Shown: in pieces, positions 1,696 to 25,679 of the stretch
Numbering within the stretch: the stretch's first letter is position 1
How the letters are laid out: each line of letters begins with the position of its first letter
The notes under the pieces: model-generated
What the model was told of the DNA's origin: nothing
The model's input: the letters and a program-made list of their open reading frames with translations, nothing else
The model's database searches: none
Assembly (NCBI GenBank): GCA_028534125.1
Contig: CM052816.1
Span: 54,066,001 to 54,130,000 of the forward strand
Length of the DNA stretch: 64,000 bases
Source: Lama glama
Taxonomy: Eukaryota
Reading direction: 5' to 3'
Position numbers and translations under genes: made by a program

Positions 1696-2081
1696 AATAT
1701 TTTCTGTCTCTTGTTTTCATGTAATATTGTCAGCCATTAACATGTCTCTTAGTCTTCCTGCTTCTAGTAACTTCTGCTTATATCTGTCACTGTTTTTTTG
1801 TTGTTTTTTGCTATTGCTCATCTATTTTAGGGGAACTTAGACTGTTTTCACTTATTTCTGAATAATGATGTGAAAATTGAGAATGTCAGAAGTCTGCTCT
1901 CTGATTATTGCTTGACTTGGACTAGACTTTCTTTCTCTAGCCGCCATAACATTGTACCTTAATCTCCTATAGGATATAAGCTCCTTAAAGGCAGGAATAT
2001 GTCCCTCAGATGCCTGACACAAAAAAAAGACTCTTGGTAAATACTGTAAAATGAATGAATTTACTCTATGTAACATTTTAA

Positions 2082-2460
2082 AAGTTTTTTATTTTATTGA
2101 GTTATAGTCAGTTTACAATGTTGTGTCATTTTCCAGTGTAGAGCACAATTTTTCAGTTATACATGAACATACATACATTCATGTCATGTTCTTTTTCACT
2201 GTGAGCTTCCACAAAATCTTTTCCCTGTGCTGTACAGTATAATTTTTTTAATCTATTCTATATATACCTGTCAGTATCTACAAATTTTGAACTCCCAGTC
2301 TGTCCCTTCCCACCCTCCTCCCCCTGGCAACTCCACAAGTTTGTATTCTATGTCTGAGTCTGTTTCTGTTTTGTATTTATGTTCATTTGTCTTTTTCTTT
2401 TCTTTTCTTTTCTTTTCTTTTCTTTTCTTTTCTTTTCTTTCTTTTCTTTTCTTTTCTTTT
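2082..2460 (-). mobile_element. Young L1 3' end (copy A), cut by gap; ends in (TTTTC)n
   Basis: Reverse complement of the same 3' UTR seen at 7500-7830, 12260-12550 and 59600-59940; (TTTTC)n at ~2392-2460. Confidence 0.9.
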
Positions 2461-2960
2461 NNNNNNNNNNNNNNNNNNNNNNNNNNNNNNNNNNNNNNNN
2501 NNNNNNNNNNNNNNNNNNNNNNNNNNNNNNNNNNNNNNNNNNNNNNNNNNNNNNNNNNNNNNNNNNNNNNNNNNNNNNNNNNNNNNNNNNNNNNNNNNNN
2601 NNNNNNNNNNNNNNNNNNNNNNNNNNNNNNNNNNNNNNNNNNNNNNNNNNNNNNNNNNNNNNNNNNNNNNNNNNNNNNNNNNNNNNNNNNNNNNNNNNNN
2701 NNNNNNNNNNNNNNNNNNNNNNNNNNNNNNNNNNNNNNNNNNNNNNNNNNNNNNNNNNNNNNNNNNNNNNNNNNNNNNNNNNNNNNNNNNNNNNNNNNNN
2801 NNNNNNNNNNNNNNNNNNNNNNNNNNNNNNNNNNNNNNNNNNNNNNNNNNNNNNNNNNNNNNNNNNNNNNNNNNNNNNNNNNNNNNNNNNNNNNNNNNNN
2901 NNNNNNNNNNNNNNNNNNNNNNNNNNNNNNNNNNNNNNNNNNNNNNNNNNNNNNNNNNNN
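2461..2960. other. Scaffold gap (500 N)
   Basis: Run of 500 N; fixed size suggests a scaffolding join of unknown true length. Confidence 0.99.
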
Positions 2961-3088
2961 CTGAACTCCATTTGCAGCTAGGGTCCTACCAAACTGTTGC
3001 CAGCACTTAGGAGAATTACACCCTAGAATTACAAAGGCCATTACAAGGAACACTCTGATTGAATAAGATCATTCAAAAAGTGCACTTA

Positions 3089-3579
3089 ACCTGTGGACTG
3101 GGAGAAAATCTTTGCAAATGATACAACCAACATGGATGGACCTACAGATTATCATACTAAGTGAAGTAAGTCAGGGAGAGAAAGACAAATATCACATGAT
3201 ATCATTTATATGTGGAATCTAAAAGGTAATACAAATTAATATATTCACAAAACAGAAACAGACTCATAGACCTAGAAAACAAACTTATGGTTACCAAAGG
3301 GAAAAGCTGGGGGGCAGGGGAGAACAAACTAGGAGTATGGGATTAACACACCATTATATATAAAGTAGATAAACAACAAGGATTTACTGTACAGCATAGG
3401 GAACTATCTTATTTAATAGTAATAACCTACAATGGAAAAGAGTCTGAAAAAGTATATATGTATGTGCGTGTGTGTATATGTGTGTGTGTGTGTATAAAAC
3501 TGAATCACTTTGCTGTACACCTGAAACTAATACTGTAAATCAACTACAGTTCAATCAAAAAGTTAAATAATAAATAAAT
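3089..3579 (+). mobile_element. 5'-truncated L1 with internal deletion, inserted in the ERV
   Basis: ORF2 end and 3' UTR with A-rich tail; TSD aaaaagtgcactta (3075-3088) / aaaaagtgtcctta (3580-3593). Confidence 0.85.
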
Positions 3580-6500
3580 AAAAAGTGTCCTTAGAAGCAA
3601 GGGCTTCCAAATCTAACAAATAGAATGGGATACCTATTTTAACTGGTATGCAGGCACCTCCAAAAGACTTCAAAATTCCAAAAGAGCTTCATTGAAAGAT
3701 CTGTTGTAAAAGGCTTATGACAAGTTGAAGAGATAGGAGGTACCTAAAACAGGAGGATGGTGAGACTAATGTGACTCCTACTGCTTCTTTTCCTGAGTAC
3801 TCGTGTTTCACTAATTCTGTCTGAATTGCCTTTCCACCCAGAAGAGATGATTTAATAGTTATCTTTTAAAATAAGACCACCTAAGGCTACAGATTATCCT
3901 CTTTAGATATCTTTCACTTCTTGGCCAAAGGCCAAACTAATGACCAGAGTTGAAAAGAATTTCTTAGAGCGGAGAGTATTCTTAAAAGTTTCTGTAAATG
4001 GATTACTTTCTGAAATTACTGGACAAACAACTAGGGCAGAAAAAAAGATGGGAGGCCACTGATCCAACTGAACTTGTGACCATAGCTGATATTCAGAGCC
4101 TGACAGGAAATTTTTTATGTTTTCTCCTCTAAGTTAAAATAAAACTATGTACCCAGAGGGAAAGAAGTAAATTGAGAATAATGTAGTTGGACAGAAGGAT
4201 CAACCTATGATGTCATTTAAGTTACAACCTAATTCTTTTGAGGACAAATCTTTGCAAAACTGGTAATACAGCTCGAGAGGCCCATTCAAGCTCCACACGT
4301 TCTTTTTCACCAATCCCCAAACCTTCTCTATTTATCTAAAAAGCTGGTTAAGTAATCTCTCTTATTGAGAACTCTTATGGAAACCATCCCCAAATCCTAA
4401 GAAGAGCAAAAACGAAAAAACAGGCTTTTAAAAAATACAAACTGCTATAGAAACACCCTCGCCCAAAACCTAATTCAAGGACAAATACAAATCTTAAATG
4501 CCTTCTCCACAAATAATAGTTTAAAAAAAAAGAAAAGCTTTAGCCATCTGAGTAGATAAACTTATTTCAACTGTTACTTTTGACTAATGAGTTTTGTATT
4601 TTTATACCTGATTCATGGCAAATTTTTTTTTCATAAGGTCTCTGTTTCTGTCTGTGTTTAATGTATGTCTATCTATGTACATTATAGACGTGGAATTTTT
4701 TTCCCTCTGAATGGTATTGCCAAAATTCATTTGTAAAAGTACTATTTAACTGGTGTAAAATCAAGCTTTTTATAAATGAAGTATATCTAAATCTCAGGAA
4801 CATATAATAAACTAACTCAAATGTTTTTTCAAGTTCCGGTGATCTAGGATAATTTTTGGTAAATAAGAACTAGTTTAAATTCATTGGTTAATTAATACAG
4901 ATATGTCTTTAGAGTTATTAGCATTAAGTATAATTCTTTCATTCTATCTAGGTTTACTTAAAGTCAAATAAGTCATGATATCTATTAAAAAATTTGTCAG
5001 CCAGAAAGAGAACTCAGGATGATGACTGACAATGTCTAACATCTGATGAAGTTTTTGTAGATAATTTAAACATGATTGTTAAGAACAAATGAGTTAAATA
5101 AACGTAAAAGAGGTAAGAGATTAAAGTGAACTTTTTAGCAATGATTTTTTTTGTTTTATGATTAAAGAGTTTCCCAAATCTCTTTGGTAACTTACACCTT
5201 AAAGTTTTGCTAAATTAATTAAGTTAAATAATGGTTAAGTTAAATTCAATGAATATCTTGATCATTTCCAAATAAGATAAAACACAGAAACATTAATTAC
5301 TGAACACAGGTTTATCTAATTTTGGATTCCTATTACAAAGAAACTAAAGAAAAAAGTTGGGTGTGAGAGCAAACATGTCTTCTGCCACAACAAAAGACTG
5401 TGATATTTAAAAGGGCACATGCTTCTAGAAATTATAAATTATACTTATAAATTTGATAATCTAATTAATGCTGGTATCATAGACATTTCATAACTGCTTA
5501 ATTCTTAGTTCTCACTAGAAATTAAGGTTTTCAAGGATTATGAATTCCAGTTAATGTGTGTTATTAAGCCTACTGGAAATAACAGGAGAAACAACTCTGT
5601 ATGCAAGAAAAGTAGGATCTGTTTTTCATCAAAAAGAACATGAGGATATGTGTGTTTTAAAAAGAGAGAGACAGAGAGGGGAAGAGAAAGGGAGTATTAA
5701 CTTGTGAGGCCAAGCTGACTAAAACAATAAAGTTTATTATAAGGGTTATGAAATGAAGCTTAAATATCAATAGTGTACTTACATAAAGCTAGAACTTCAT
5801 TTTTTATCTGTTAAAAGGACAAAGTTTTAATGGACTATTGGTCAGCCCTTGATCAGCTATTTTGAAAGTTTTTCTTTCCTTTTAAATAACCTGTCTAGAA
5901 AGCAAAGATTTTGTTGCTTTTTTTGTTTTAAATCAGGTCTCTGATAACTTAGGAAAATTGAGTCCACTTAATATTAAAACAGCTAAATTTTGCTTACACC
6001 TGTGTAACGTTTTGTGTTTGCTTTTGATATCTTTTATTGTCACTATGGTCAAACAGATAATTAAGTATTGTTTCATAATGATCTGTGATCCTATTTAATC
6101 AAGTGTCCAAATCTTTTAATATTTTGGACAAACTTCCCCAAACTAAATACTAAATAAAGTCTTTCTGATCTCTAACTTTGGGATTTTTCATCTCAAAGGA
6201 TTTGCTCTCTCTCCTTATAAAGAGAGCGCCACTATATTAATTAGGCTTATTTGGTATATTAAACTACATGTGAAGCATTGTCAAATAAGTGATGCAAAAA
6301 CCTTCTTGGATTACATTTATGTGGATCTTCGTTATTAATATAAGCGTTCCTGAAATAATACAAAATTCTTAGAAATCTGATGTCTTAGTATAACATTATC
6401 AGTCACAATTCTAGTTATTATTCTAAAATGTTGTATGCCATGAAAATAAACAAATTTCCCTGTCTATTCCATTAAAACAAACCCTTAGCAAATCTTTAAT

Positions 6501-7370
6501 AACAGACATTTAAGTCTTCTGCCATTTACAATTACTGTTTTACTCTGATGCTTTACGAAAATGTTCCTATAAAAATGCTTCATTTCATAAAAAATACCCT
6601 TGTAAGTACTCTGCAATGCAGGTTTTTGATAATGTTAGGATTGTAACACTGAACTGAGTAAAAATTTCTAAAACTGTAATGGAAAGCTGATTGACTCATA
6701 AAGCTGCTAACCTAAAATGAAGATCAACAAGAATTAATTACAGGAGACTAAATGAACTAATGAGGATGATCATAATTTCTATGACTTCTTATGCTGGTTC
6801 TCCAATATTTTGTTTCCCAGATACAAGGAGGCCTTTCCTCTTAAGCTCAACATAACTTACAGCAATTTGGTAAATTATATCTTTGTAAGCAGAACTGAAA
6901 CATTATCTCTTTCTCTCTATCTGATCCTTCCAGGATTTGTAAACTCTGAGTGAATATTCTTATTTTCATGGCAGTATAGTTATTTGCATAAATTTGAAAA
7001 GAATCTGTTCTCCTTATAACAGGATACAATTAGACACATTGGTTGTATTGCCAAGGCTTTGGCTAAAATGTCATATTTGAGAATGTCCCTAGACTCAGAT
7101 AGGACCAAACAGCTTTAAGGAACTAACACTGACTTTATGAGCCAATAAAGCCCCTTGGAAAAACAGTCTAGTACCTTGCTTACAGAGTTCCCAGTAGCCT
7201 TACCTGTTGAGTAAGGAAGGTCACTTCCTGGCAGGAATAGGAACCTTGGGATATTTGGGAGACCTCAAGAAGGGAGGAGTTCACCCAAATCTATAGGTAC
7301 TGCAGGAGTGTCTTACGGCAACTTTTGGCTTGGCTTCCTGGCCTTGAGGGGTATTTAAAAGTTTATGTGA

Positions 7371-7950
7371 CATTCTCCAGGAGCATCCATGTTGCTGCAA
7401 ATGGCGTTATGTTGTCAGTTTTTATCGCTGAATATTCTAAGTGAAGTAAGCCAGAAAGAGAAAGAAAAATACCTTATGAGATCGCTCACATGTGGAATCT
7501 AAAACAAAACAAAACAAAAAACACAAAAAAAAACAAACAAAGCATAAATACAAAACAGAAATAGACTCATAGACATAGAATACAAACTTGTGGTTGCCAA
7601 GGGGGCAGGGGTGGGAAGGGACAAACTCGGATTTCAAAACTGTAGAACAGATAAACAAGACTATGTGGTATAGCACAGGGAAATACATACAAGATCTTAT
7701 GGTAGCTCACAGAGAAAAAAATGTGACAATGAATATATATATATGTTCACGTATAACTGAAAAATTGTGTTCTACACTGGAATTTGACACAACATTGTAA
7801 AATGATTATAAATCAATAAAAAATGTTTAAAAAAAAAACTATGTTCAACATGGAACATTAAACCATTTGAAAATTTCCCCTTGTTTGCTGAGTCAGATAA
7901 ATCAATAAAACTATTGGTGAAAGTCAAAAAATAAAAAATAAAAAATAAAT
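7371..7950 (+). mobile_element. L1 insertion with 5' inversion and 3' transduction
   Basis: TSD aaaagtttatgtga (7357-7370) / aaaagtttacgtga (7951-7964); antisense L1 7371-7434; sense L1 7435-7838; extra sequence 7839-7925; second A-rich tail. Confidence 0.9.
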
Positions 7951-8833
7951 AAAAGTTTACGTGAGATTACTTCTGAAAAAGTCCCAGCAAAGCATACTTA
8001 AAAGAGCCTATATGATCAACTCTTATTCTTGTGGCACTTATGTAAATAACCCGGTCAAGTTTATTGAATGTAAATTTATTCTGCAAACAAAGTAGTCTTA
8101 ATTTGGCTATCTTTGGTTAAAATTGGGGTAATTTTAGAGAAAAAATGTTTCATTAATATACTTCTATGGACACTAGATTCTAGTAGTGGTCACTGCATTT
8201 TAAGGTTTTGTTTTCTAACTGTAAACTGGACTGTATCCTGAATTCTCCTAATTTCCTCCAATATGTGGCTACAACTCTCCAAACTAATGTTTACAATTTT
8301 TCTCCCACCCTTTTGACTTGGAATCATTAAGAATTAAGACTGCCATTTTCTCAAAGCTGTGCAAACTAAAGTTAGACAACTTGACATAAATGTCATAGAA
8401 ATCACAACAGCTCGTGTATGGACAATCTTTGTGCCTAATGCTGTATGGTCATTCAGAAAGATTATCAGACATACAAACTGTAAACCAGGAAAATCTATTA
8501 GGTTGTCACTGTCTGCCCTCACTCCAACTGAAGATGTTTAGAGCCAGACATCTAGAAATGTTCTCAACTGGCTGCATTCGGAATTCAGAAATTGGGATTA
8601 TAGTCTGCTCCAATCATTATTATTTTTCTTTTATTTCCATAGAAATGCCTCGTTAAATACCTGACTGCTTATACCATAGGCCTAACTTGGGAAGCTCACC
8701 TGCATCACTGCCTCCTGAAATGAAACACAACTGTTTAACTGAAATGACTTATTCTCAGGTCTAAGAGATTGGTTGAGTGAGATTAGGTAATCTATCAACA
8801 CAAATTTTCTTGGGGAATTTCCAAAGGTGGGAC

Positions 8834-9312
8834 TGAAGGAGCTCAGAATGAGCATCCTCAAAATATGCCACCTTAGCATGTGGATTATTTTGAGCTAAAA
8901 GACAAAAGAGACCCTGTGGGCTCAAGAAGAATTTCTGCCCCTCCCTTAACTACCAAGAAGAATTTAAACTGGGGGTCTTTCCCAGAACAAGAATTACTAG
9001 CAGAAAACAATTTTATCTGAGTGACCGAACTATATAGCAGAGCAAACATCTAATTACCAAACATCTGCTCTTCTTATTGTCCTGTGAATTGCCCTCCACT
9101 CCTTTGAAGCCCCAGGCCCCTTTCTATTCCTTAGCTCAGGATGGCATATATATCTAATTTTACCCTCCTGTCTTTGAAACTCTCAGGTATCTGGGGTTTC
9201 TGTATGTATAAAATTAAATTTGACTTTCTCTTGTTAATCTATATCCTGTCAATTTGATTAGACCAGCTGAAAGAACATTTGAAAGTTAGGGAAATATTTT
9301 TCCTCCCCAACA
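8834..9312 (+). mobile_element. ERV1 3' LTR (MER34-like)
   Basis: TG...CA ends, preceded by a purine tract; colinear with the LTR at 20856-21602 (shared gccaccttagcatgtggattattttgag ... tcctccccaaca). Confidence 0.88.
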
Positions 9313-9379: not shown

Positions 9380-10385
9380 TAAGTAGCTCATACAACTTAA
9401 CAATAAAAAACCAAACAATCCATTCAAAAAATGGGCAGAAGACCTAAACAAGCAATTCTCCAATGAAGACACACAAATGGCCAATAGGCACATGAGAAAA
9501 TGCTCAATATCGCTAATTATCAGAGAAATGCAAATCAAAACTACAATGAAGTACCACCTCACAGCAGTCCGAATGGCTATCATTCAAAAGTCCACAAATG
9601 ATAAATGCTAGAGGCTGTGGAGAAAAGGGAACCCTCCTACACTGCTGGTGGGAATGTTGTCTGGTGCAGCCATTATGGAAAACGGCATGGAGATTCCTCA
9701 AAAGACTTAAAGTAAACTTACCATATGATCCAGCAATCCCACTCCTGAGCATATATCCAGAGGGAACCTTAATTCAAAAAGATTCATGCACCCCAGTGTT
9801 CACAGCAGCACTATTGACAACAGCCAAGACATGGAAATAACCTAAATGTCCATCGACAGATGACTGGATATAGAAGTTGTGGTATATTTATACAGTGAAA
9901 TACCACTCAGTCATAAAAAATAATAAAATAATGCCATTTGCAGCAATATGGATGGACCTGGAGAATGTCATTCTAAGTGAAGTAAGCCAGAAAGAGAAAG
10001 AAAAATACCATATGATATCACTTATATGTGAAATCTTAAAAAAAAAAAAGACAAACTTATTTACAAAACAGAAACTGACTCACAAACATAGAAAACAAAC
10101 TTATGGTTATAGGGGATGGGAGGAGAGGGTGGGAAGGGATAAACTGGGCTTTCAAGATTTGCAGATACTAACTAATATATATAACATAGATAAAGAACAA
10201 GTTTATAATGTACAGCAAGGGAAACTATATTCAGCATCTTGTAACTAATGATAAAAAGAATATGAAAACAAATATATGTATTTCATGTATGACTGAAGTA
10301 TTGTCCTGCACACCAGAAATTGACACAACACTGTAAACTGACTATATGTCAATAAAAATACATACATATTATACATATATGAAAA
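9380..10385 (+). mobile_element. 5'-truncated L1 (ORF2 C-terminus and 3' UTR)
   Basis: ORFs 9598-9840 and 9877-10248 give L1 ORF2 C-terminal motifs ([25 protein letters not shown]); TSD aaattattagtg / aaatcattagtg. Confidence 0.92.
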
Positions 10386-10484
10386 AAATCATTAGTGGAA
10401 TTATAAATAGATAAAACTCTTTGGAGGGCAACTTGCCAGTATCTCTCAAAATTTAAAACACATAAGCCACCTGACCCAGCAAAT

Positions 10485-11047: not shown

Positions 11048-11595
11048 ACAGTTCAACTTGCAGAAACTTATTTTACAAATGTGCAGGTAGATCTGTAGAA
11101 CTACACACATGAGGAAATTCACTGATGTATTTTCCAAACCATTGAAATACTGGAAACAATACAGAGGTTTATCAAGAGAAAACTGGGTTTTTAAAAAATG
11201 CGCTATATCCATACAGAATACTTTAAAAGGAACTGAGGCTGCTCTATATATTCTAATATCAAAGAACAAAAAATTCAATGTGTAAAACAGTGTCTACAGA
11301 GTATACTATCATTTATTTTTGTTTTTAAAGACATAGATGTAAATATTTGTGCATGCACATAATAGCTCTAGAAGGATACAGAAATGAGTAATGATGTTGG
11401 CTCCAAGAGGGGAAAACTGGGTGGCAAGTAGATAGAGGTGGTAGATTCATGTTTCACTGTGTATCTATCTTTTTGTAACTTTGGAATTTTGTGCCATGTC
11501 TATACTGAAAATTGTTCAAAAGACTATTTGGATATATTAAAGAGAGAGAAAGAATAAGATATTGTTTTTATTCTCAAGGAACTTAAAATGTTACA

Positions 11596-12554
11596 GATGA
11601 CAAAGGCTTTATCTCCAGAATATATAAGCAGCTCATATGACTTAATAAGAAAAAAACAAACAATCCAATCCAAAAATGGGCAAAAGACCTAAACAAGCAA
11701 TTCTGCAATGATCAACAGGCACATGAAAAAATGCTCAATATCACTAATTATCAGAGAAATGCAAATCAAAACTACAGTGAGGTATCACCTCACACCAGTC
11801 AGAATGGCCATCATTCAAAAGTCCACAAATGACAAATGCTGGAGAGGCTGTGAACAAAAGGGAACCCTCCTACACTGCTGGTGGGAATGCAGTTTGGTGC
11901 AGCCACTGTGGAAAACAGTATGGAGATTCCTCAAAAGACTAGGAACAGACCTACCATATGACCCAGGAATCCCACTCCTGGGCATATCTCCAGAAAGAAT
12001 CCTACTTCAGGATGACACCCTCACCCCAATGTTCATAGCAGCACTATTTACAATAGCCAAGACATGGTAACAGCCTAAATGTCCATCAACAGATGACTGG
12101 ATAAAGATGTGGTATATTTATACAATGGAATACTATTCAGCCATAAAAACCAACAACATAACGCCATTTGCAGCAACATGGATGCTCCTGGAGAATGTCA
12201 TTCTAAGTGAAGCCAGAAGAGAAAGAAAAGTACCATATAAGATCACTCATATGTGGAATCTAAAAACAAAAACAAAAACAAAAAACCCCACAAAGCATAG
12301 AATACAAACTTGTGGTTGCCAAGGGGGCGGAGGGTGGGAAGGGATAGACTGGGATTTCAAAATTGTAGAATAGATAAACAAGGTTATATGGTATAGCACA
12401 GGGAAATATATACAAGATTTTATGGTAGCTCACAGAGAAAAAAATGTGACAATGAATATATATATGTTCATGTATAACTGAAAAATTGTGCTCTACACTG
12501 GAATTTGACACAACATTGCAAAATGATTATATCAATAAAAATGTTATAAAAAAA
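11596..12554 (+). mobile_element. Young L1 3' fragment, apparently chimeric (flanks from two different insertions)
   Basis: ORF2 C-terminal ORFs 11708-12070 and 12107-12373, then poly(A). The two flanks do not match each other, but each matches a TSD outside the contig. Confidence 0.9.
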
Positions 12555-12879
12555 AAAAGTCTGTCTTCTACGTGTGGACAATCACACTTGCAGATCTGAT
12601 TCTTAAGACTAAAAGTATGACCAAAAGCCTTTGTTAACAACAACAACAAAAAACAGGCAGTCCATTCCTTACTGAAACATGAAGGCTAGCCTATCTCCAG
12701 TGATTTTTTTTTTTCAGCTATCTTTGGCAAACAGTGAATTATTTAAGTGTTAGCAGTGGGATTATTTATGTGATGGGAATTTTAAAGGAAGTAGAATATT
12801 CCATGAATCAACTTATATAAGAAGTCATTTATCAATGCTCCTATTCAGGTCAAATAAAAGTTAAGCCAACGGAATGTCA

Positions 12880-13030
12880 GGTGACTCGGATTTTAGTTTT
12901 AATTCTTGGACTACTTTGTAATGTGATCTTGGGTAAGCTGCTTAATTTCTCTAGGTCTCAGGTTCAACATCTGTAAAATGAAAGGGTTAGGCTAGACGAT
13001 CCCTAGGGTATTTTACAGCTCAAAAATGGA
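12880..13030. mobile_element. MIR SINE fragment
   Basis: MIR core tgtgatcttgggtaagctgcttaatttctctaggtctcag..catctgtaaaatg. Confidence 0.7.
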
Positions 13031-13664
13031 AAGGAAGAAACACATCTTAAATTCATTTTATTAATAGAGAAAATCAAACTATCAGCATAGACTGGTAATT
13101 TTATTTATTTACAAAGCTGATAATTAATATTCTGAAACTGACCCTAAAATGCTTAGTTGGATTTTCAGGTCAATAAATCTAGCACTTTAAGTTTAACTAT
13201 CAATTTCTCTTCACGTTACTGATGTATTATTCGTCTTTAGGTCTCAAAAGTTGCCATAAAATTTCTTTTTTCTTTGCAATTCATGATATAATTCATCCCA
13301 GTCTAGTGTTTCATCAATTTAACAGTTCTAATTGCCTTATTATCTGCTCTGGTGCGGTAGTAAAGCCCCTGAACATTTCATTTACCTTATCAACAAGAAA
13401 ACCCCATATATCTCAGCCTTAAGGATATTACCTCTACCTCTTGGATGAGTGGAGGCATGAAGAACGTAAGCTCTCCAGAAAGCCAATATAATCTATCACT
13501 ATTTAACTGTTTGTCAATGTTTATCCCCTTTATGCCTGTCTCAACTCATATTTAATGGGGCTTTTTATTGTTATTTTCCACTATAAAATTTTGAAGACAT
13601 TTAAATGTCACTAATTCCCTTCTAAGTTTAGCATGTCTACTGGAATGTTTCTTACTTGGAAGAC

Positions 13665-13880
13665 ACAGTAACACAGTGCAAATGCATGGGCTTTGGAGTT
13701 AGGCAGACTGGCTCCAAATCTTAGTTCTGAGCTTTGCTAGTTATATGGTCTTAAACAAGTTACTTGCCTCTCTGAGCCTGTTTTCTCATGTTAAATAGGA
13801 AGACTAACCACAACAGTGAATATAAAATAATTAGTTCCTGGCCTAATATTGCACACACAGCAAGTATTCAGTAACCGTTA
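13665..13880. mobile_element. MIR SINE
   Basis: gcatgggctttggagttaggcagactgg...aacaagttacttgcctctctgagcctg...gcacacacagcaagtattcagtaa. Confidence 0.75.
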
Positions 13881-13980
13881 CTCATGTCCTTTCCACACCA
13901 AGGGCTCTCACTTTGCTGTGATTCTGCTTGTTGACCTGACCAGTCTGAAAACAGATTTTAGTCATCAGCCACTTCTACAG

Positions 13981-14262
13981 CAGTGTTTCCAAATGGCTGG
14001 TTGCAACCCATCAATAAGGGTTGTAACCCATGACTCCTGAAATTAATTCAGTGGGTTGTGGTCAGCATTGTTTTAAGGGAAGAGAACAGAATGGAATTGG
14101 AAATACCAAAGTATATCATAAGTGGTAAAAATAGGAATATTTCATTAAACTTTTGTTTAAGTTTTGTGTATGTGTGTGTGTGTGTACGTGGACTGTGTTA
14201 TGATACAAAATAAAATCTATTTCTTACTCTAGATTGGATCAAAAAAGTTTGGATTACACTGC
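13981..14262. mobile_element. hAT-type DNA transposon relic
   Basis: Ends cagtgtttccaaa ... tttggattacactg form imperfect terminal inverted repeats. Confidence 0.55.
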
Positions 14263-14739
14263 TCTATAGAGAAGGCCAGTCATCTCTGGCTGGATCACTT
14301 CTCTTCCCTAGTCATCTTCCCCAAGGAATGTACTACTAAGACCAGCATTTCAGTATTTCAAAGTCAAGAGGCCCACCAGCATTATTTCTCTATGGAAACA
14401 GTTATATTTATAGTCTTGAGGTTATCTACATTGTTAATAAGACCAAGAAGCAGAAATGATACCCTTAAAAATACTGTTCTTAACTATTCATCAAATCATC
14501 TCATATTTTTCTTCTTTTGAAACACAGTAGCAAGTAAAAGGCTCTCTAGGGGCCTTAGGGAGCCGGGGGGTGGGGTGGGGAGGATGCTAAAGAAATTTAC
14601 AACCAGAAACTCAGTTATTCAAATAAGAATACATTAAAATCTAAAATGTATTTCGTAAGTACAACCCCTTCAATAAAATACACTGATCTTTTTGCGAGAG
14701 TATTTATTTTGTCTTTTAAAGCAGATCCAAATTAAATGG

Positions 14740-16420
14740 GAGTTGGGGAGGGCTGTCTGGGAAGACTTTCTCAAGAAAGTGGTGTCAAAGTTAGGATTAG
14801 ACAGATGAAAAAGAATTAGCAGAGCAAAGGAAAGGGAAAGAGTATATGGCAGGAGCAGCAAGGAGGGAGGCAGCATTTCAGGTACAAGAAGTACAGCACA
14901 AAAGGTTCTAAAGTGAGAAAGAGTATGGAAAGTTGGTTTGAGAATTACATAAGGCTGGTTCATTGAGTGCGGAGAAGAGCAGCAAGAGATAAAGTTAAAC
15001 AAGAGAGTAAGGGACCAGAAAATGATCTTGTAAAGTCAAAGTAAAGAATATGGATTTTTCCTGAACGTATTTGACAGACATATCAGGTGAGTGACCTAAT
15101 CAATCCTGTTAACTTTTTAAAAAAGATGACTATGACTGCAATATGGACAATGTAACAGAGAGGGCAAGGATAGGGCCAGACAGACAAGGCGAGTGTGGTC
15201 ATAAGCCCGGAGAAAGATGGTGGTGGCCTAGCCAAGGGTGGTAACTGTGGGAATGGAGGGAAGTAGATGAAGGTGAAAATCATTTTAACTATGGTGAATG
15301 ATGGATATAGGAAGATAAGGGAGCAGAAGCCAAAGGTAACTGGGCAGATGGTGGTGTGGCAGTGCCAGTGCCTGAGACAGGGAGACCAGGAGGAAGACTG
15401 TGGGAGAGGGAAAATATAGAACTAGTAACTTTAAGATCATCCTTTATTTGAGGTGCCTATGTGACATTAAAGTGGAAATGTCCAGAGATGTCCAGGCCTT
15501 GAGTTCAAGAGAAAGGTCTGAGTTAAAGATATACATGTGGGAATCAGCAACATGTGGATGTAACAGGGGTCACAGGAGTGAAGGAGGCTGCTCATTGGAG
15601 TGTTTACAAAGTGAAAAGGTAAAAAAGCCCCAGAAAACATTTGAGAGAGGGTAAGCTACACTAATGCAAGAACTACATCTATCTTTAAAAAAAAAATTGA
15701 TGTAAAATTGACATACAACATTATATTAGTTTCAGGTGTACAACATGATTCAATATTTGTATATAATACAAAATGATCATCACCATACACAGATACAAAA
15801 CTTTCTTTCTCGTGATGAGAATTTTTACATTTGTCTTATTCACCACTATATCCCTATCACTCAGTATCTGTCATATATTAGTGGCTCAATAAATCTGTTA
15901 CATAAATAACAAAGGAAGAAAGAACCAAAAACAAGACTGAGGAGAGGCAAAAAGTTAGAAGGGAAATCAGAGGATTGCAATATCACTGTAGCCAAGGAAA
16001 CAGTATAGTATAGAAAGCTTATCAAGGAGGGGAAAGTAATTCTGTCAACAGCCACTAGTAAGTCAAGAGGAAGACGGTTAGATATTATAAATGACCTTTG
16101 TTTCACTGCTGATGAACTCTTTTGACAAGTTTGGCTCCTTGGGAGGGAAATGAGATAATGATTTTTTGCTGTTGATTCTTTAAGATACTAGTGACTACAG
16201 CATGCCTGAATACTGCTGGGAATAAATTGGTAAAGAGATTAAAGGCATAGAAAAAAGAAGAGACTAACACACCATAGCAAGGGGATGGGATTCAGGTAGA
16301 ATGCTGACTTTCAGTAAGAGGCTCAGATCTTTGATTCTAAGAGGAAATAATGAAGAAAGTAAGGGTGCAGATGCACTTAAGTCTGTAGGTTTGATGGCGC
16401 TTAGGACACATATGATGAGC
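14740..16420. mobile_element. Degraded L2 fragments (short L1 3' piece near 15690-15830)
   Basis: Purine-rich L2-like text (gaggtgcctatgtgacattaaagtggaaatgtccag, gagttcaagagaaaggtctgag). Confidence 0.6.
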
Positions 16421-17696
16421 AAGTGATTCTGCCATTAGCCAGGGAAAACTTTAAGAAAGAAGTAATGATTAAGAGGAGACCTAAAAATTGAGGACTAGTA
16501 TTATTCAGAGCAGTATGTTGGAGAATGTTCTAGTTATAGGAAACTGCATATTTAGAAATGGCCTGAAGGGAGATTTTAAATTAAATAATTGATATATTTA
16601 CCAAGTCCAGGAACAAAGAGCAGGGAAATTAGCTTGAACCTGGATTTAGCCCTCAGCTAAATTTCATTTACTCCTCAGACTGATGTTGATACAGTTCAGA
16701 GAATAGTTTCTACCCTGAGAAGCTACTCTAGTTATCCCAATCAGAGGACTCTAACAATTAAGGATTAGAGTATTTGAAGAACTGTGAGCACTGATTCATC
16801 AGCCAGTCATTTATCTATGAATCAAATACTTCTTCAATAACTACTAATTTCAAGGCACCATCCTGGATTCTGGAGAATGCAAAGAGAATAAGCGTGTTTG
16901 TCACTCTCAAGGAGCTTAGTCCCTTCATAGGTGGAATAAGAGAAATGTTATCTGAGGCCCAGAGCCTAAAGCAAATATTTACTCATTCTTTCTACCCCCT
17001 ACTCCCTGCCTTTTGGTTATCTTATGTCTCTTCCCTCTACATTTATCTCTCTCATTTATCCCTCCCCTTCTTCTCCCTACCTTACTGGTCATAAAATAAC
17101 AGTGCAGAAAAAATTTAATATTTATTCAATCTCAACGTAGCTGTTCCGTTCTTTTTTTTTTGTCTGTGTGTGTGATATAACTCCAGTATATGAATTAACC
17201 ACAAACAAACAAAAACCCACTTTGTTTCTCTGAGGAAAAAGACTCAGAAAAGAAAGTCAACTGCTATTGGTAGTGATAACAGTAAGTAAAGGAAACTAAG
17301 AAAATTATCCTGTTTACAAATGTGGGGTATCTGAAGAGATCTCAGAACATAGCCCTCAACAAAACATAAATTGTCTATTGTATTTTCCCCCACTTCCATG
17401 CCACTGTCTATCAACATGACAAACAGCCAGAAAATTAATTGGTCTGAAGATCTGGAATAACTATCAGAGATCTTAAAGATCTGGTAATCAACTACAGAAC
17501 TAAGGTATTTTATCACACCATTAGACTCAAAAGACTGGCTAAGAGAAATAAATGCCATGCCAGAGTCTAAAGTTGTCGCCTTACTAAAAGACAGCATATA
17601 ATGGCTAGAGGCATGGACTAAGACACCTAAACCCTAGATTGCAGAACCTATTTTGCTGCTTAATACCTGTGTGCTCTTTTGAAAGTCACTTAATTT

Positions 17697-18135
17697 GTGT
17701 TAGCCAGGTCCTTGGAGAAGCAGACACTAAGATGGGACCAAATTTGCAAGGATTTTATCAGTGCAAATACCCATAAGAGATAAAATGGGAAGCGAGTTGG
17801 AGAAGGCTGGGAGAGTTTACCAGACCATGATGCAAGTCTGACTCTGAATGAAGGAGACAGTGAGGAAAGGTTAGGAGGAAGCATTGTAGACTGCCACGCA
17901 GTTTTAGGGAGGTTTGGCAAGGCCAATGGAGAGTCCTCAGGCCAAAGTCAGCTGTTTCCAGAATCCCATGACTTCCAGCAAGAGGCCTGTCTGCCACTGG
18001 CTGTCAGCAACTCATGGTAAGCGATGCTTTGGGAAAAATGTAGTAACATATTTCACAGTTCAGTGGCTGGGGCCCTCGGTTAATTATACTCCCTACCTAT
18101 GGAAGTCTTCAAGTTCCAATCTCATGACCACCACA
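17697..18135. mobile_element. MaLR LTR (MLT1-like)
   Basis: Starts tgtgttagccaggtccttggagaagcagacactaagatgg and ends ..accaccaca. Confidence 0.65.
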
Positions 18136-18588
18136 ACTTCTTCTAAGAGTCTTGACATCTATAAAATTCTCTCTTTTTGTCCTTCTTACTAGGTTTAGTG
18201 ACATAAAAGGGCATGGGAACAGCAATATTGATAGTGAGCTTTCACCATGTGCCATACATTAGCTAAGCATTTCATGTGTGTGTCATTTACCCTCACAATT
18301 CTTATGTGAAGTAGTTGTAATGAGCCCCATTCCTTAATTTTCCCAAAGATAAACAGCTAGGAAGTGGTAGAGCCAGGATGAAAGCACCTGTTGAATAAAA
18401 CCAGTGCACTGACTATACTTTGACAGATTTATAAAAATGATGTGACTGTGTGAGGTCATGGGATACAAAAAGATAAATAACACTTTGTTTTCTAGGAGCT
18501 TGTGATGTCAGAGGAAGACAAAGGTCATGTCTTTAAGGGCAGAATGCTTCATGAAACCAGACAAATTTATGATAAATTGCCTCTGGGA

Positions 18589-18842
18589 CAGAGTTTCAAC
18601 CTTGACATTTTGGACATTTTGGCCTTTGCTGGGGACCAGGGAATACTACCCTTTGTATTGTAGGGTGTTTAGCAGTAAGCCTGGCCTCTACTAACTAGAT
18701 GTCAGTTGTATACCCTCCCTCTCCACCTCTGTCCGCAACATACACATGCACACACACACGTGTGACAACCAAAATTGTCTCTTGACAATGTCAAATGCTC
18801 CACTGATGGGTAGGCAATAAAACTCCTTGTTGAGAACCACTG
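18589..18842. mobile_element. MER20 (hAT-Charlie MITE)
   Basis: cagagtttcaaccttgacattttggacattttgg ... gtgacaaccaaaattgtctc ... gttgagaaccactg. Confidence 0.8.
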
Positions 18843-20855
18843 CTCTAGAAGTAGAGAAGCCTTCTGTTTTCACTTTAAAAAATTATCAAAGCCCCAATTT
18901 TTGGTAGAGTCTTAATTTATTCAAATCACATGTATCATAACATTATTTAATCCAGTCAATATATTCTTTATTTACTTACATCATGTGATCAGCTTCTTCA
19001 AGATAAAACTGTTTTGAAAACCAAGTCGAATCTCTGTTTGCTTTATATTTGGAACTATTATGAAACATGTAACATAAAACATCAAAGAACTATTCACTAA
19101 TCTCTTCTCTAACGAAGTTCTACTAAAAGCAATGCATCTAAACAAAAATTTAAATTACTATTCTAAATTATGGGGAGTCAGTATTAAAGTTTACTTACAA
19201 CATTTTAAAGAAAAGTACATTTAAAAAAATCCTTTCTCCTCATAGATAAATACAAGTACTTACAGGTCAAGCCTTTGAGAATCAGATTTATTTCTGGAAA
19301 ACAACCAATTATCTATAATATTTATAATTTCATAGATTTAATACTACTGGGAATTTTCTCAAAAGAAAATCTGGCCTTATTTTTAAAAATCTTAGAATGA
19401 TCACTTTCACTATATATAATATTCTCTTTGTCAGCAAAAAAATGTATCAGTATTTATTCCTCCCATATAACTTCTATAAAACTTTGGTTATAGTTATCAA
19501 AATGTAAGGCACCTATATACTTCAATCAAAAAAAAAACATATATATATACAAAAAAACTTTAAAAAAAAGGTAAGGCAAAATTATTTCCTGTTACATTAA
19601 GAATTCTTAAAGACTGCATGGAACCTAGACTTTCAGAGCAGTTAGCATTTCTCAAAAGTATTCAGGAAAATGCACTGAGCTATAAGGGTCAAATATAGCA
19701 AATGGTTATTAGAGTTCACTACAGTATTAAAAGCTTAGAAAATGAATATAAAAGTGTTAGTCTTTCTTTAAAAGGCTAAAGTCTATTAACAGCTTAAAAC
19801 AGGGCACAGTAGGGGGTTAATACGTTGTTGTCTGAATCACTTTCATCAGTTTAAGTACCTATTAGTCCTTATTAGCAATGTGCTAGCAAGGTGCTATTGG
19901 TCTTTTAAAGTCTATTCTGCTTTTTCTTGGTCTATTTGCCTAGATTCTTTGGCAATAGTATTTGAAATACAAAGTTTAGATTTGTATTTTTCTTTAGAAT
20001 TTAAAATTTTAGATTTGTATTTTAAAAATGTTTTCTCATTTTAGGACTCTGTTCAAAGTAATTTAAATTGTTCAGCACATCTTTCTATCTAACCTGTTAT
20101 CTTACAATTTTCAACAATATGAAAGTACTCTCCAAAATTTCTCTTAAGGAGAGAAATCAAGATGAACCTTTTCAGAAACTGAAGCAATTCACGTGCTCTC
20201 CTAAGTAAGAACACTAGTGCAGAAATGAATACAAAACACATATTCACAAAGTAAAACTGGCCTGTTAAACCAACTTAGTTCTAGCATAACCAATGGTTGG
20301 TTATTCTTTGGATATCATAAATTTATTGTTTAAAAACTAAAATTCAAATACTGAAACTGAGAAATAACTTATGGTAAAAGTTTACTGAACCTAGTTTCAA
20401 GGACCAAACTTTGAATAAAATCTATCTTAAAATATTTTTTGTAACAGTTTAAAACAGAAGTCATTTTGAGGAATTCACCTTTGTGCAATGACATAATGTA
20501 ATGCAGTAATTTTAGAAAGTTTTCCCGTTCTAGCTCTATCAGTAATTAGCTGGGTAATCTGGAGCAAATTATCTCCCTCTCTTGTTTGTTTTTGTGAATG
20601 GAGTGGGAGTGATGGGATGGGGTGATGATGGGAACTGGGAGACAGAGAATCTCTAAGCCATGCTTCATCAGCTCTACAATTTAGTGTTTGAAAGGAAAAG
20701 ATTTCCTCCTTTTAAAGGACTATAATCAGAAGTGAAATTAATTTAAACTGTTTAGCACACCTGTACACCTCATCTGTTTTTATCTTGTCATTGTCAACGA
20801 TGGGGAAAGTACCTTCCTAAAAAACCTAAACATACTTGGGCATTTCTACTTATAT

Positions 20856-21602
20856 TGTTGGAGTTCAGAACAAGTCTCTGCAAAATGTGCCACCTTAGCA
20901 TGTGGATTATTTTGAGGTAAAAGGCAACAGAGACCCTTTGGGCTCAAGAGAAACTTCTGTCCCTCCCTTAACTACCAAAAAGAACTTAAATTGGAGGTCT
21001 TTCCCAGAATGAGAATTATTAGCAGAAATAAATTTTATCTGAGTGACCTATCTATATAGCAGGGCAAACATCTAACTGCCAAACACTTGCTCTTCTTATT
21101 GTCCTATGAGATGCCCTTCCCTGCTTTGATGCTGCCGGCCCCTTTCCACACCTTAGCTCAGGATAGCATATAGACAGTTGATCTTTGTGTAAACCAAGTT
21201 TGAAGACAAGTCACTTATACACAGATTTTTTTCAATAAATATACCTGTATGTACCAGTTCCACATCCACAGATTCAACCATCTGTGGATTCTGTACTACA
21301 TTTACGATCTTCAGTTGGTGGAATCCACAGATGAGGAATCTGCAGATACGGAGGGCTGACTAAAACTTGAACATTCAAGGATTTTGGTACCTGCAATGAG
21401 TCCTAGTAGTAATCCCCAGTGGATACTGAGTGACAACTGTACCTCATTTTACTCTTTTGTCTCTGAACCTCTCAAGTATGTGGGGTTCCTGCATATACAA
21501 AATTAAATTTGATTTTCTCCTGTTAATCTGTCATGTCAATTTGATTATCAGACCAGTCTAAAGAACCTTTGAAGAGTAGAGAAAAATTTTTCCTCCCCAA
21601 CA
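20856..21602 (+). mobile_element. ERV1 5' LTR (MER34-like) carrying a Tigger insertion
   Basis: TG...CA ends, homologous to 8834-9312, followed by PBS-like tttttggcgagccagcaagga. Confidence 0.88.
21175..21439. mobile_element. Tigger2/MER2-family MITE inside the 5' LTR
   Basis: Ends cagttg...caactg, TA on the right flank; absent from the homologous tata site of the other LTR. Confidence 0.8.
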
Positions 21603-22658
21603 TTTTTGGCGAGCCAGCAAGGAGACCTCACCAGCTGGGCACTGCTCACCCCTAAGCTCCTTTGGTAGAAAGATTTCGTGAACTCCAATAAGAGCCAGCA
21701 AAAGAATTCTTACCACAACAGATGCTTGGATCTCTACCTGCCAAGTCTGGTGGAAGCATAATGGTGATGAGAGTCTTGATTTTTCCTTTTCTAAACTTAG
21801 ATTAGCAGGAGAAAACAAATGTGGAACTAGTTCCTTGGGCTTAGCAACTCTTAGTTATTTGGTATGAGTACTCATGGGTTTTGTTGATCCTTTCCTTCCC
21901 AGAAGTGGTTACTGTTTTCTTGTTCTATGTCTTGTCTTAATAGATTGGGTTTATGACTAGTGAAAATATTCTCTTTGGTCTCCACCACCCAAAAGGTGTG
22001 CTTATCAGGGAGCAATTGGTGGCTAGTTGAATAGACTAGGGTTCAGAGAATCTCCCTGTACTGGCCATGCCAGTTCTCAAAGGAGTTTGTTCCAGTCCAT
22101 AAAGGGCCTTTGCCACCTCAACATTTGTGGATTTCAAACAAAGACTACTTTTTAGACTATTTTTAGAAGTTAAATTTCTGAATCTTGTAAGTGCTACATC
22201 TTTTTGCACTTTGTTGCGGGACACCTCTTTCATCTTTGGTTAAGCCATGCTAAGAAGGCTTATTGGTTTGAGTCACTATTGAGATTTAATTGGCTCTATC
22301 TGAAAGAAAAAAAATTTTTTTACAGCTTTTATCCTAAACAATCACCTTACTGAAAGACAAAGTGGATCCAAAGAAGTATACTGGCTAGCCTTAGGAACTC
22401 CTTTAACAAAAGGATAGAAATTAAACTCCACATCCAACATAAATTACCCTTTCTTAAAATTCAAAGTGTTAAGTGCACCTTCTGGCACATCTGCTTATTT
22501 TATGTCTAAGAACTGCAGTGTTGGAAGCTGTAGACATCTTACACATCTTTTTTATTTTTTAAAGGCCAAAATCTTACTAAATTTGTTTTGTGTTCTGAAA
22601 CTTGGTTTGGTGACCATCAGGTTGAGGACTCCAAAACATGGCTGGACAGAAATGTGGA
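21603..22658 (+). mobile_element. ERV1 internal region, 5' portion (PBS/leader), cut by gap
   Basis: Directly follows the 5' LTR; PBS-like tggcgagccagc. Confidence 0.75.
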
Positions 22659-23158
22659 NNNNNNNNNNNNNNNNNNNNNNNNNNNNNNNNNNNNNNNNNN
22701 NNNNNNNNNNNNNNNNNNNNNNNNNNNNNNNNNNNNNNNNNNNNNNNNNNNNNNNNNNNNNNNNNNNNNNNNNNNNNNNNNNNNNNNNNNNNNNNNNNNN
22801 NNNNNNNNNNNNNNNNNNNNNNNNNNNNNNNNNNNNNNNNNNNNNNNNNNNNNNNNNNNNNNNNNNNNNNNNNNNNNNNNNNNNNNNNNNNNNNNNNNNN
22901 NNNNNNNNNNNNNNNNNNNNNNNNNNNNNNNNNNNNNNNNNNNNNNNNNNNNNNNNNNNNNNNNNNNNNNNNNNNNNNNNNNNNNNNNNNNNNNNNNNNN
23001 NNNNNNNNNNNNNNNNNNNNNNNNNNNNNNNNNNNNNNNNNNNNNNNNNNNNNNNNNNNNNNNNNNNNNNNNNNNNNNNNNNNNNNNNNNNNNNNNNNNN
23101 NNNNNNNNNNNNNNNNNNNNNNNNNNNNNNNNNNNNNNNNNNNNNNNNNNNNNNNNNN
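22659..23158. other. Scaffold gap (500 N)
   Basis: Second run of 500 N. Confidence 0.99.
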
Positions 23159-23549
23159 GAGGTGATACCTCATTGTAATTTTGATTTGCATTTCTCTGAT
23201 AATTAGTGATATTGAGCATCTTTTCATGTGCCTATTGATCATTTGTATGTCTTCCTTGGAGAATTGCTTGTTTAGGTCTTCTGCCCATTTTTGGATTGGG
23301 TTGTTTTTTTCTTTTAAGTCGTATGAGCTGCTTATATATTCTGGAGATCAAGCCTTTGTCGGTTTCATTTGCAAAAATTTTCTCCCATTTCTTAGGTTGT
23401 TTTACTTATGGTTTCCTTTGCTCTGCAGAAGCTTGTAAGTTTCATTAAGTCCCATTTGTTTATTCTTTCTTTTATTTCTATTGTTTGAGTAGACTGTTCT
23501 AGGAGAACATTTTTGAGATGTATGTCAGATAATGTTTTGCCTGTATTTT
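23159..23549 (-). mobile_element. Young L1, 5'-truncated end (copy B), cut by gap
   Basis: Minus strand encodes ORF2 [21 protein letters not shown]; bounded by tagaagacagactttt (23550-23565). Confidence 0.9.
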
Positions 23550-25679
23550 TAGAAGACAGACTTTTGATAGATTCCTTAGCAATATGAGCTTCTGCATATT
23601 TATGTCAGAAACTTCAGGAGTGGCTGTAACTTTTGGTTTAAACAGACAGGAAAACGATTCAAATATAAACTCCATCTTCCTTTAGAAAACTTTTTGGGAT
23701 GTTATTGTCACATATTTCCAAAAATCCTTTCTAGGTTCCAGAAACCATATATACTTATACCTTTAGTTTAAGCAGGCACAGCAAAATTCCATTGTTTTGG
23801 TTATAAAATGTTTGATATCTAATATCCATCATCTATATGATTTTTAATGTGGTTACACAGGATAAATATTGAGATACTACTGTGCAAGTGGCTCAACTGT
23901 AAAGCATTATGTAGATGTGTATTATCATCAAGATACCACTATTTGGGTCATAGTTATTTAGGTAAGAAATCACTTTAAAATTCTGCTGGGTGAGTTGAGG
24001 AAGGCTTCCTGCAAGAAATGACATTTGAGGTAGACCTTGAATGAGTAGTCAAGGTGAGAAGGTGAGGCTTGGGAAGAGGAGTTAATGTTCTTTTAACAAA
24101 AGAAATAAGATAGCAATCTCCAGAGTGCATTTAGGAAATGAATAGGGCATATTTGGGCATTTTGTTAACATTATGATAGTTGTGTAAAAAGCATAGGGTA
24201 TATAATGTGAAGTATAGCTGGGGGTCTTTAATGTCCTTCTGAGAAATTTGGAATTCTGTAGACATTTTTTCTGTTTATTGGTTTATCTGAGGAAAGCAAG
24301 GCAGTTCTGGTGACAGTTTGAAGGTTGCATTGTGAAGGTAAAGAAAACAGCTGTTTCCTAGTGTTTCATACTTTTTTTTTCCCCTAGTTAGATTTTTAAC
24401 TTAGAATCAACTTGATCTCTGATGGACTGTGTCTAGTTAAGTGCTACATAGTAATGGTTGCACAGTGTTTATTTAATATGGGTGGATTTCTGCTTTGGCA
24501 ATTTCTTTTAAGTAGAGGTAATCCTGTTTTATGTTGTGTTGTTTTTAATGCAAACCTATGAGTAGGGCAAAAAAACCTGGGCTTCTTATGTTTACCAACA
24601 GCTAATGACACCATTTAGAATGTATATAAAGTATGTACAAAATAATGAAGAGTAAACAATAAGCATGTGGGTATGTGAAGGACAAATTAAGCCAAATAAA
24701 CTTGTTATGTTTGCTTCTTATGGTGTTTGCTTATTGCTTCTTACTGTGTTTGCTTCTTAATAGACTAGAATTACAAAACTAATATTCAATAGAAGGAAAG
24801 CTAATATCTAATTTTCACTAGAATGATTAACACTATTTTAGGAACACTAAAATAAATTATCATTAGTTGTAAACGTGGACTAAAGACTAGCAATTGGATC
24901 GTGCCAAAGGTAATGATGGCCTCATATTTCTGAATTGGTGGTGGTGGTCTGCATGGTGCTATAGGTGTTATATTAAATACAGTTTTATTTAAATCTTATT
25001 AATTAACTGGAAGAAGGCATGCAAGAAAATCCACAAAAGGTGTGAAATTTTGATTGTAATTAAAACAGAGAACTGAAAAGAATTAGAGTGATGAGGCATG
25101 CCTAGGTAGACAATGAAATTTCCTTTGAGAAGTTAATTCCCTTGAGAGGAAAATGGGACAAATTTAATACATTAAAAATGTTTTGTTTTTAATTTGGCAT
25201 TTGCCAATGAGTAGAAATTGAGTGACTTAGTTAGAAGTGTGCCTTTTCATTTGTGATCCTTTGTATCCAGGATGTCAGTAATCCAAAATCTTTTATAATA
25301 TGTAAAACTTAGATATATGATTTCATAGCATATAGATACACATTTGTTCATGGAGAAAAATTTTAAGACTAAGAGAAACTTACAACAGGAAGCTTGTAGT
25401 CACTTTTTGTGGAGAAGCTTTCGTTCTAGAAAATGTTTTTAGAAATGTCCGAAATCACTACTTGGGGAGACATGTTTATTTTTTCTTTAAAGAGAAAATA
25501 TTATAAGTAGTTTCCTCATCTGTCAGTAATGCCTACCCTGAATATTAAATTAATGAGACTCTACCAAGAAATTGCCTCTAGAAGTTTGTCCTCCAAAAAA
25601 AAAAAGTTAACTTTTTCACTTTACTATTAAATTAAGACTATATTTTGAGAAAAGTGCCTTCTTAATCCACATAAACCTT

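What the first reader, a model, noticed from the sequence alone, without database searches (positions are those of the whole stretch)
2069..23565. The ~20 kb contig between the gaps is inverted and circularly permuted through a chimeric L1
Seen in sequence: (1) The L1 at 11596-12554 (+) ends in poly(A) then aaaagtctgtcttcta (12555-12570). Its exact reverse complement tagaagacagactttt (23550-23565) bounds the 5' end of the minus-strand L1 half after gap 2 (16/16 match). (2) Its 5' flank ttaaaatgttaca (11583-11595, a TT/AAAA endonuclease site) is the reverse complement of tgtaacattttaa (2069-2081), next to the tail of the minus-strand L1 half before gap 1. This match is weaker because aaaatgtt also occurs in this family's tail. 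(3) The ERV's 3' half opens the contig and its 5' LTR plus PBS closes it. Inference: the true order is 1-2460, L1-A, revcomp(~11.8k to 2961), revcomp(22658 to ~11.8k), L1-B, then 23159 onward. The segment between two direct L1 copies has been closed into a circle and opened inside the ERV. Most likely this is an assembly collapse of two near-identical L1s. The same topology is what L1-L1 recombination would excise as a circle, leaving a ~20 kb intronic deletion allele.
Basis: partly seen in the sequence, partly recalled or inferred. Interest (0 to 1): 0.75.

Follow-up and report, generated by a model that had tools for sequence, protein, structure and literature searches.

The report
Scrambled 20-kb contig in TBCA intron
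A 20-kb piece of a mammalian gene's intron appears flipped and cut open in the wrong place in this assembly; the order shown is very probably an assembly error, but the hybrid jumping-gene copy inside it could be the real junction of a collapsed tandem duplication.

Summary
The sequence observations hold. The L1 at 11596-12554 shares its target-site duplications with the two half-L1s outside the gaps (16/16 and 13/13), not with itself. A class-I provirus is split across the contig ends. T-A skew and repeat orientation are reversed relative to the rest of the TBCA intron. The contig is therefore inverted and permuted through a chimeric L1 (about 90%).

The two L1s are not near-identical: 95% at the ORF2 end and 90.5% in the tail, with several indels. 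A false join through a short shared stretch (about 50%) competes with a real L1-L1 recombination junction of a collapsed 20-kb tandem duplication (about 35%); both give the same circle.

No reads or contigs across the joins are in hand, so copy number and exact abutment of the contig ends are untested. The provirus flanks show no matching duplication. Either way this is a known kind of thing: a scaffolding error, or an intronic repeat-mediated copy-number variant.

The parts
2069..2081 (-). 3' copy of TSD-a (13 nt), after the tail of L1-A
2082..2460 (-). 3' half of L1-A (tail without the 21-nt deletion); contig ends inside a (TTTTC)n tract at 2393-2460
2461..2960 (.). Gap 1, 500 N
2961..8833 (+). 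3' part of an AT-rich, non-coding class-I-type provirus interior with two L1 insertions; longest stop-free frame in 3700-8837 is 89 codons; PPT-like tract 8823-8833
   Evidence: class label recalled
7368..7950 (+). L1 with 5' inversion, short 3' transduction and its own TSD (control element)
8834..9312 (+). 3' LTR; right flank CAGT
9380..10390 (+). Older L1 with its own TSD, 11 of 12 nt (control element)
11583..11595 (+). 5' copy of TSD-a at a TT/AAAA site
11596..12554 (+). Chimeric L1: 5' end of L1-A, tail of L1-B; switch somewhere in about 11778-12260, not localised
   Evidence: chimerism inferred from TSDs
12555..12570 (+). 3' copy of TSD-b (16 nt)
12571..20855 (.). Mostly unique intron DNA with reversed T-A skew; 12600-20800 is held by 18 of 24 listed public runs at 97-99% of sampled words
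20856..21602 (+). 5' LTR with a 265-nt inverted-repeat transposon insert (21175-21439); left flank ATAT
21607..21624 (+). Primer-binding site, 17 of 18 nt complementary to the tRNA-Arg(ACG) 3' end
21625..22658 (+). Provirus leader, cut by the contig end; longest stop-free frame 84 codons
22659..23158 (.). Gap 2, 500 N
23159..23549 (-). 5' half of L1-B, reaching about 190 nt further 5' than the chimeric copy
23550..23565 (-). 5' copy of TSD-b
51245..51355 (+). TBCA exon (profile positions 15-48), fixes the sense strand; ends approximate
   Evidence: E 1.5e-8
62018..62104 (+). Next TBCA exon (profile positions 52-79)
   Evidence: E 6.8e-7, 30.0 bits, just under the 30.3 cut-off

Best explanation
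The genome carries one copy of this 20-kb segment between two direct, 5'-truncated, antisense L1s (L1-A and L1-B) in the first intron of TBCA. Inferred steps: the assembly broke in L1-A at its microsatellite and in L1-B near the ORF2 end. That left the segment with two loose ends that overlap in L1 coordinates over about 460 nt at roughly 95% identity. The two ends were falsely merged into one chimeric L1. The piece was written out starting inside the provirus, and long-range scaffolding put it in the right place but the wrong orientation, between two fixed 500-N gaps. Shown: swapped TSDs, split provirus, reversed strand bias, L1 divergence. Inferred: true order, false join, assembler behaviour.
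For: TSDs pair across the gaps, not in cis; native TSDs were recovered for 4 of 5 control L1s (19 nt exact; 15, 12 and 12 nt with one mismatch). T-A skew in repeat-masked 1-kb blocks is negative in 7 of 9 inside and positive in 29 of 37 outside (p = 3e-4; after flipping p = 0.36). L1s and the provirus inside are sense in 4 of 4; L1 pieces outside are antisense in 7 of 9 (tally; hypergeometric 36/1716 = 0.02, my arithmetic). Both discontinuities coincide with fixed-length gaps, and one contig end is a microsatellite. A shared exact run of 60 nt or more in 480 nt has probability 0.73 at 95.2% identity. Short contigs are the ones Hi-C scaffolders mis-orient (4.3% local errors, PMC7672694, passages).
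Against: A purely sequence-based collapse has no reason to pick the neighbour 20 kb away among the hundreds of thousands of L1 pieces of a mammalian genome (350,000-397,000 in camelids, PMC8605555, table passage). The artefact needs locality (mate pairs, linked or long reads, local gap filling), and the assembly method is unknown. Exact runs of 100 or 200 nt are unlikely (0.14 and 0.001 at 95.2%), so a large-k assembler would not merge these copies. G-C skew shows no reversal (p = 0.82), the skew blocks are not independent, and two of the nine inside blocks are purine-rich and may be unmasked old repeats. The LTR flanks show no matching TSD.
Confidence: 0.5

Rival explanations
1. Collapsed real tandem duplication. 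Unequal recombination between L1-A and L1-B made an allele A - L1a - X - chimeric L1 - X - L1b - B. The two identical 20-kb copies collapse into a cycle closed by the real chimeric L1; both flanks broke off near the crossover, and the cycle was written out from an arbitrary point and scaffolded upside down. The displayed order is still an artefact, but the junction is real (germline polymorphism or a clonal somatic event).
For: Explains why the join is with the neighbouring L1 and needs no long identity. Fits documented human events: L1-mediated homologous rearrangements have median similarity 93.5%, L1 junctions a median microhomology of 34 bp, events reach 25 kb, and 4 of 96 L1 events were duplications (PMC9675761, passages). 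It predicts exactly the same TSD swap, permutation and contig ends.
Against: Such events are rare: 4 L1 duplications in three human genomes. LINE pairs are enriched at CNV breakpoints only from about 95-97% identity (PMC4344489, passages), and these copies are about 1 kb long and 90-95% alike. Both flanks must also have broken independently. No depth or junction reads are in hand.
Confidence: 0.35
2. A real inversion of 12555-22658 only, between two inverted L1s; 2961-11595 is correctly oriented and the 13-nt match is chance.
For: Explains the strong 16-nt swap. The 13-mer resembles the family's tail and has a chance copy at 35211; the provirus flanks do not match; the unique part of 2961-11595 is too short for a skew test (-0.017 on 1,189 nt).
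Against: Leaves two opposite-facing half-proviruses with related LTRs, one with only a PBS end and one with only a PPT end. Needs a 4-in-104,316 match at the predicted spot and leaves three L1s and a provirus in sense orientation.
Confidence: 0.05
3. Extrachromosomal circle excised by L1-L1 recombination and abundant enough in the sample to assemble, with a reciprocal 20-kb deletion allele.
For: Same topology; the junction would be a true recombinant.
Against: A circle of ordinary intron DNA would have to reach near-genomic depth. The segment is ordinary DNA in 18 of 24 listed runs from 7 studies (14 of them flagged as possible sources), so a deletion is at least not fixed.
Confidence: 0.04
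4. The displayed order is real: a circular intermediate re-inserted in place, as described for permuted segmental duplications.
For: Permuted order through circular intermediates is documented (PMC7450558, abstract).
Against: Both required new junctions fall exactly in assembly gaps of fixed length, and the flanking half-L1s would both have to be fused to the opening point.
Confidence: 0.03

Closest known systems
Local mis-orientation and mis-joining of short contigs in Hi-C-scaffolded short-read assemblies (PMC7672694, passages; bioRxiv 10.1101/254797, passages)
   Same: A roughly 20-kb contig in the right place but the wrong orientation, bounded by uniform gaps, with contig ends in a microsatellite and an L1.
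   Different: The contig is also internally permuted through a chimeric repeat, which orientation error alone does not give. That 500-N gaps mark a particular scaffolder is recalled; the term '500' was not found in the preprint.
Transposable-element-mediated rearrangements, LINE-1 homologous type (PMC9675761; PMC4344489; passages)
   Same: Two direct L1s, one chimeric L1 at the junction with swapped flanks, 90-95% similarity, size within the 25-kb range reported.
   Different: Here the junction is seen only in an assembly, with no read, depth or PCR support; the substrates are about 1 kb and below the identity at which LINE pairs are enriched at CNV breakpoints.
Circular-intermediate segmental duplications with permuted block order (PMC7450558, abstract and outline)
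   Same: Permuted order of blocks.
   Different: Those have a second, distant locus and junctions with only microhomology; here there is one locus, closure is through homologous L1s and the opening coincides with gaps.

Membership tests
Mis-assembled (inverted, permuted) contig | Discontinuities coincide with contig ends or gaps | tested here: met
   both at 500-N gaps
Mis-assembled (inverted, permuted) contig | Insertion hallmarks pair up only after re-ordering | tested here: met
   for both L1 TSDs
Mis-assembled (inverted, permuted) contig | Split provirus has matching flanking TSD | tested here: not met
   ATAT versus CAGT; LTRs are 13-15% diverged, so decay is possible but 3 of 4 mismatches is more than expected
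Mis-assembled (inverted, permuted) contig | Strand asymmetry reversed inside the contig | tested here: met
   T-A skew p = 3e-4 and repeat orientation; G-C skew uninformative
Mis-assembled (inverted, permuted) contig | Contig end continues directly into contig start | tested here: inconclusive
   no end overlap; 0 of 89 motif hits were relatives of the provirus; no reads in hand
Repeat collapse of near-identical copies | Two copies near-identical over more than the assembler's word length | tested here: not met
   95.2% and 90.5% with indels, longest shared word 41 nt in the visible parts; the middle 480 nt is seen in one version only
L1-mediated tandem duplication | Direct homologous L1 pair with a single chimeric L1 and swapped TSDs | tested here: met
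L1-mediated tandem duplication | One crossover within a tract of identity | tested here: inconclusive
   private-substitution scan did not localise a switch
L1-mediated tandem duplication | Raised copy number of the segment and reads spanning the junction | not tested
Class-I-type LTR provirus | Paired TG...CA LTRs, PBS, PPT | tested here: met
   PBS 17/18 to tRNA-Arg(ACG); family name not determined

The most novel reading that the evidence does not exclude
The chimeric L1 is the true junction of an unreported 20-kb tandem duplication in TBCA intron 1, made by recombination between two 1-kb L1 fragments of different subfamilies only 90-95% alike, and hidden in the assembly as a circular contig. 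Permuted contigs with swapped TSDs would then be a way to find collapsed repeat-mediated duplications from assembly sequence alone.
Probability: 0.35. Interest if true: 0.38.

Novelty: not a real feature. Interest (0 to 1): 0.2.

Why it matters
If it is an artefact, it matters only as a local correction: 20 kb of TBCA intron 1 is inverted and permuted, no exon found in the window is touched, and repeat annotation or inversion calls here would be wrong. If the junction is real, it is one more L1-mediated copy-number variant, notable for short, diverged substrates and as an example of how a collapsed duplication can be read from an assembly. No effect on TBCA is suggested by anything seen.

Tried and rejected
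No whole genome is held for this window, so no genome-wide L1 or provirus copies could be compared. A run search found 24 rows, 18 holding the unique segment at 0.97-0.99 (7 studies, five organism codes, 14 flagged as possible sources); 4 rows held next to nothing and 2 raw-read Hi-C rows were unindexed. This shows presence, not order or copy number. An 18-nt motif near the contig end gave 89 metagenome loci; all 89 were scored and none resembles the provirus beyond the motif (best local scores 25 upstream, 22 downstream). A first scoring used a motif shifted by one base, covered only part of the loci and was discarded. The first TSD null (3 of 3000 at 16 nt or more, 1 of 3000 at 13 or more) did not exclude L1 copies and the true sites and was replaced. 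Sliding identity and private substitutions did not locate the crossover. Twin priming was rejected for the 16-nt pair: its TSDs would be direct and adjacent, as in the element at 7368-7950. An in-cis TSD for the middle L1 was rejected: 9 nt, the family's tail motif. Earlier-finding look-ups: 0 near, 0 relatives, 0 for two word searches, 8 of 15 shown for the genome and none about this topology. Paper searches for TBCA + camel + duplication (9 of 9 listed) and camelid CNV/L1 terms (6 of 6 listed) showed no title or abstract start on this locus; two searches on circular contigs from collapsed duplications gave nothing usable from their listings (1 of 1; 20 of 160 listed). No supplements were opened; a CNV table in one could bear on novelty.
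Full report
Setting. The window has two gaps of exactly 500 N (2461-2960, 22659-23158) around a 19,698-nt contig. Two TBCA exons lie on the + strand near 51245 and 62018; a recalled first-exon motif was not found, so the region is taken as intron 1 by inference. No whole genome is held.

The observations are real. The + L1 at 11596-12554 ends in poly(A) followed by a 16-mer whose only other occurrence is its reverse complement at 23550-23565, abutting the 5' end of the minus-strand half-L1. Its 5' flank is a 13-mer whose reverse complement follows the tail of the minus-strand half-L1 at 2082-2460; this word also occurs by chance at 35211. In a matrix of 9 L1 5' flanks against 7 tails, the top exact matches were a native TSD (19 nt) and the two swapped pairs (16 and 13 nt); the remaining 60 were 10 nt or less. 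Native TSDs were found for 4 of 5 control elements. Among 104,316 non-L1 positions, 0 reached 13 nt against the middle L1's tail and 4 reached 13 nt against the left tail. The middle L1's 5' part and the half-L1 after gap 2 are two different sequences for the same L1 coordinates, so at least two elements contribute to it whatever the 13-mer means.

The provirus. An LTR at 8834-9312 is preceded by a purine tract and 5.9 kb of AT-rich interior that begins at the contig start. A related LTR at 20856-21602 (85.3% and 87.3% identity either side of a 265-nt insert) is followed by a PBS matching tRNA-Arg(ACG) at 17 of 18 nt (sequence from PMC7757669, passages) and 1 kb of leader that runs into the contig end. 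It is old and non-coding (longest stop-free frames 84 and 89 codons). Against a single provirus: the outer flanks, ATAT and CAGT, do not form a TSD. Whether 22658 abuts 2961 exactly is open: the ends do not overlap, and a motif scan found no relative (0 of 89).

Independent evidence for inversion. With the L1s and the provirus masked, T-A skew is negative in 7 of 9 1-kb blocks inside the contig (mean -0.050) and positive in 29 of 37 outside (mean +0.076; p = 3e-4; p = 0.36 after flipping). Runs of five or more T versus A are 25:34 inside and 193:111 to the right. G-C skew shows nothing (p = 0.82). The three other L1s and the provirus inside are all sense as displayed; 7 of 9 L1 pieces outside are antisense (tally). 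T excess on the sense strand and antisense bias of intronic L1s and proviruses are established knowledge, recalled. Together these put the corrected order at about 90%: left flank, L1-A, reverse complement of 11595 to 2961, reverse complement of 22658 to 12555, L1-B, right flank.

The cause is not the one first proposed. L1-A and L1-B are 95.2% identical (179/188, 19 gap columns) at the ORF2 end and 90.5% (219/242, 42 gap columns) in the tail. The longest shared word is 41 nt. The middle copy's tail shares a 21-nt deletion with the copy at 7434 that L1-A lacks. The switch lies in about 11778-12260 and could not be placed. In simulation, an exact run in 480 nt at 95.2% identity reaches 60 nt in 73%, 100 nt in 14% and 200 nt in 0.1% of trials. 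A small-k or gap-filling step could therefore merge the two ends; a large-k one could not.

Two histories give the same picture. In the first, the segment is single-copy; its two loose L1 ends overlap in L1 coordinates and were falsely merged. This needs some locality to pick the neighbour among hundreds of thousands of L1 pieces, which mate pairs, linked reads or gap filling can supply (inference). In the second, unequal crossover made a tandem duplication whose copies collapsed into a cycle closed by a real chimeric L1. Human L1-mediated events have median similarity 93.5% and junction microhomology 34 bp, but only 4 duplications were seen in three genomes (PMC9675761, passages), and enrichment at CNV breakpoints starts near 95-97% identity (PMC4344489, passages). 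I put the false join at 0.50 and the duplication at 0.35; these are judgements, since no depth or junction reads are in hand. In both, the wrong orientation is an ordinary scaffolding error for a short contig (PMC7672694, passages). A simple inversion of 12555-22658 (0.05), a free circle (0.04) and a real permuted order (0.03; PMC7450558, abstract) are not excluded but fit poorly. The segment is ordinary DNA in 18 of 24 listed runs from 7 studies, 14 of them flagged as possible sources, which says nothing on order or copy number.

Novelty and score. The displayed order is very probably not a feature of the genome. The most novel surviving reading is a new member of a known class of repeat-mediated duplications. 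Searches showed nothing on this locus at the level of titles and abstract starts; supplements were not read. Interest 0.2; 0.38 if the duplication is real.

Noticed in passing
window 7357-7965: L1 inside the provirus with a 67-nt 5' inversion (twin priming), then after its poly(A) about 85 nt of extra sequence with a second poly(A) signal and tail, closed by a 15-nt TSD with one mismatch: a small 3' transduction.
   Followed up: partly
window 1290-1457: Three head-to-tail copies of a 56-nt unit, 98-100% identical: a recent local tandem expansion or an assembly stutter.
   Followed up: no
window 21175-21439: 265-nt element with CAGTTG...CAACTG ends inserted in the 5' LTR only; resembles a Tigger-type miniature DNA transposon (label recalled), which would date the provirus as very old.
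   Followed up: partly
window 1590-1690: Short tRNA-like SINE with an A-rich tail, resembling the camelid Vic-1 family (label recalled, not tested).
   Followed up: no
window 27513-27685: 135-nt L1 tail with a perfect 19-nt TSD, a young and extremely truncated insertion in sense orientation.
   Followed up: partly
window 51000-58000: Strong pyrimidine bias on the + strand just after the TBCA exon (GC skew to -0.30, AT skew to -0.29), not examined.
   Followed up: no
window 30203-30246 and 58162-58262: Near-perfect short tandem duplications of 23 and 51 nt.
   Followed up: no
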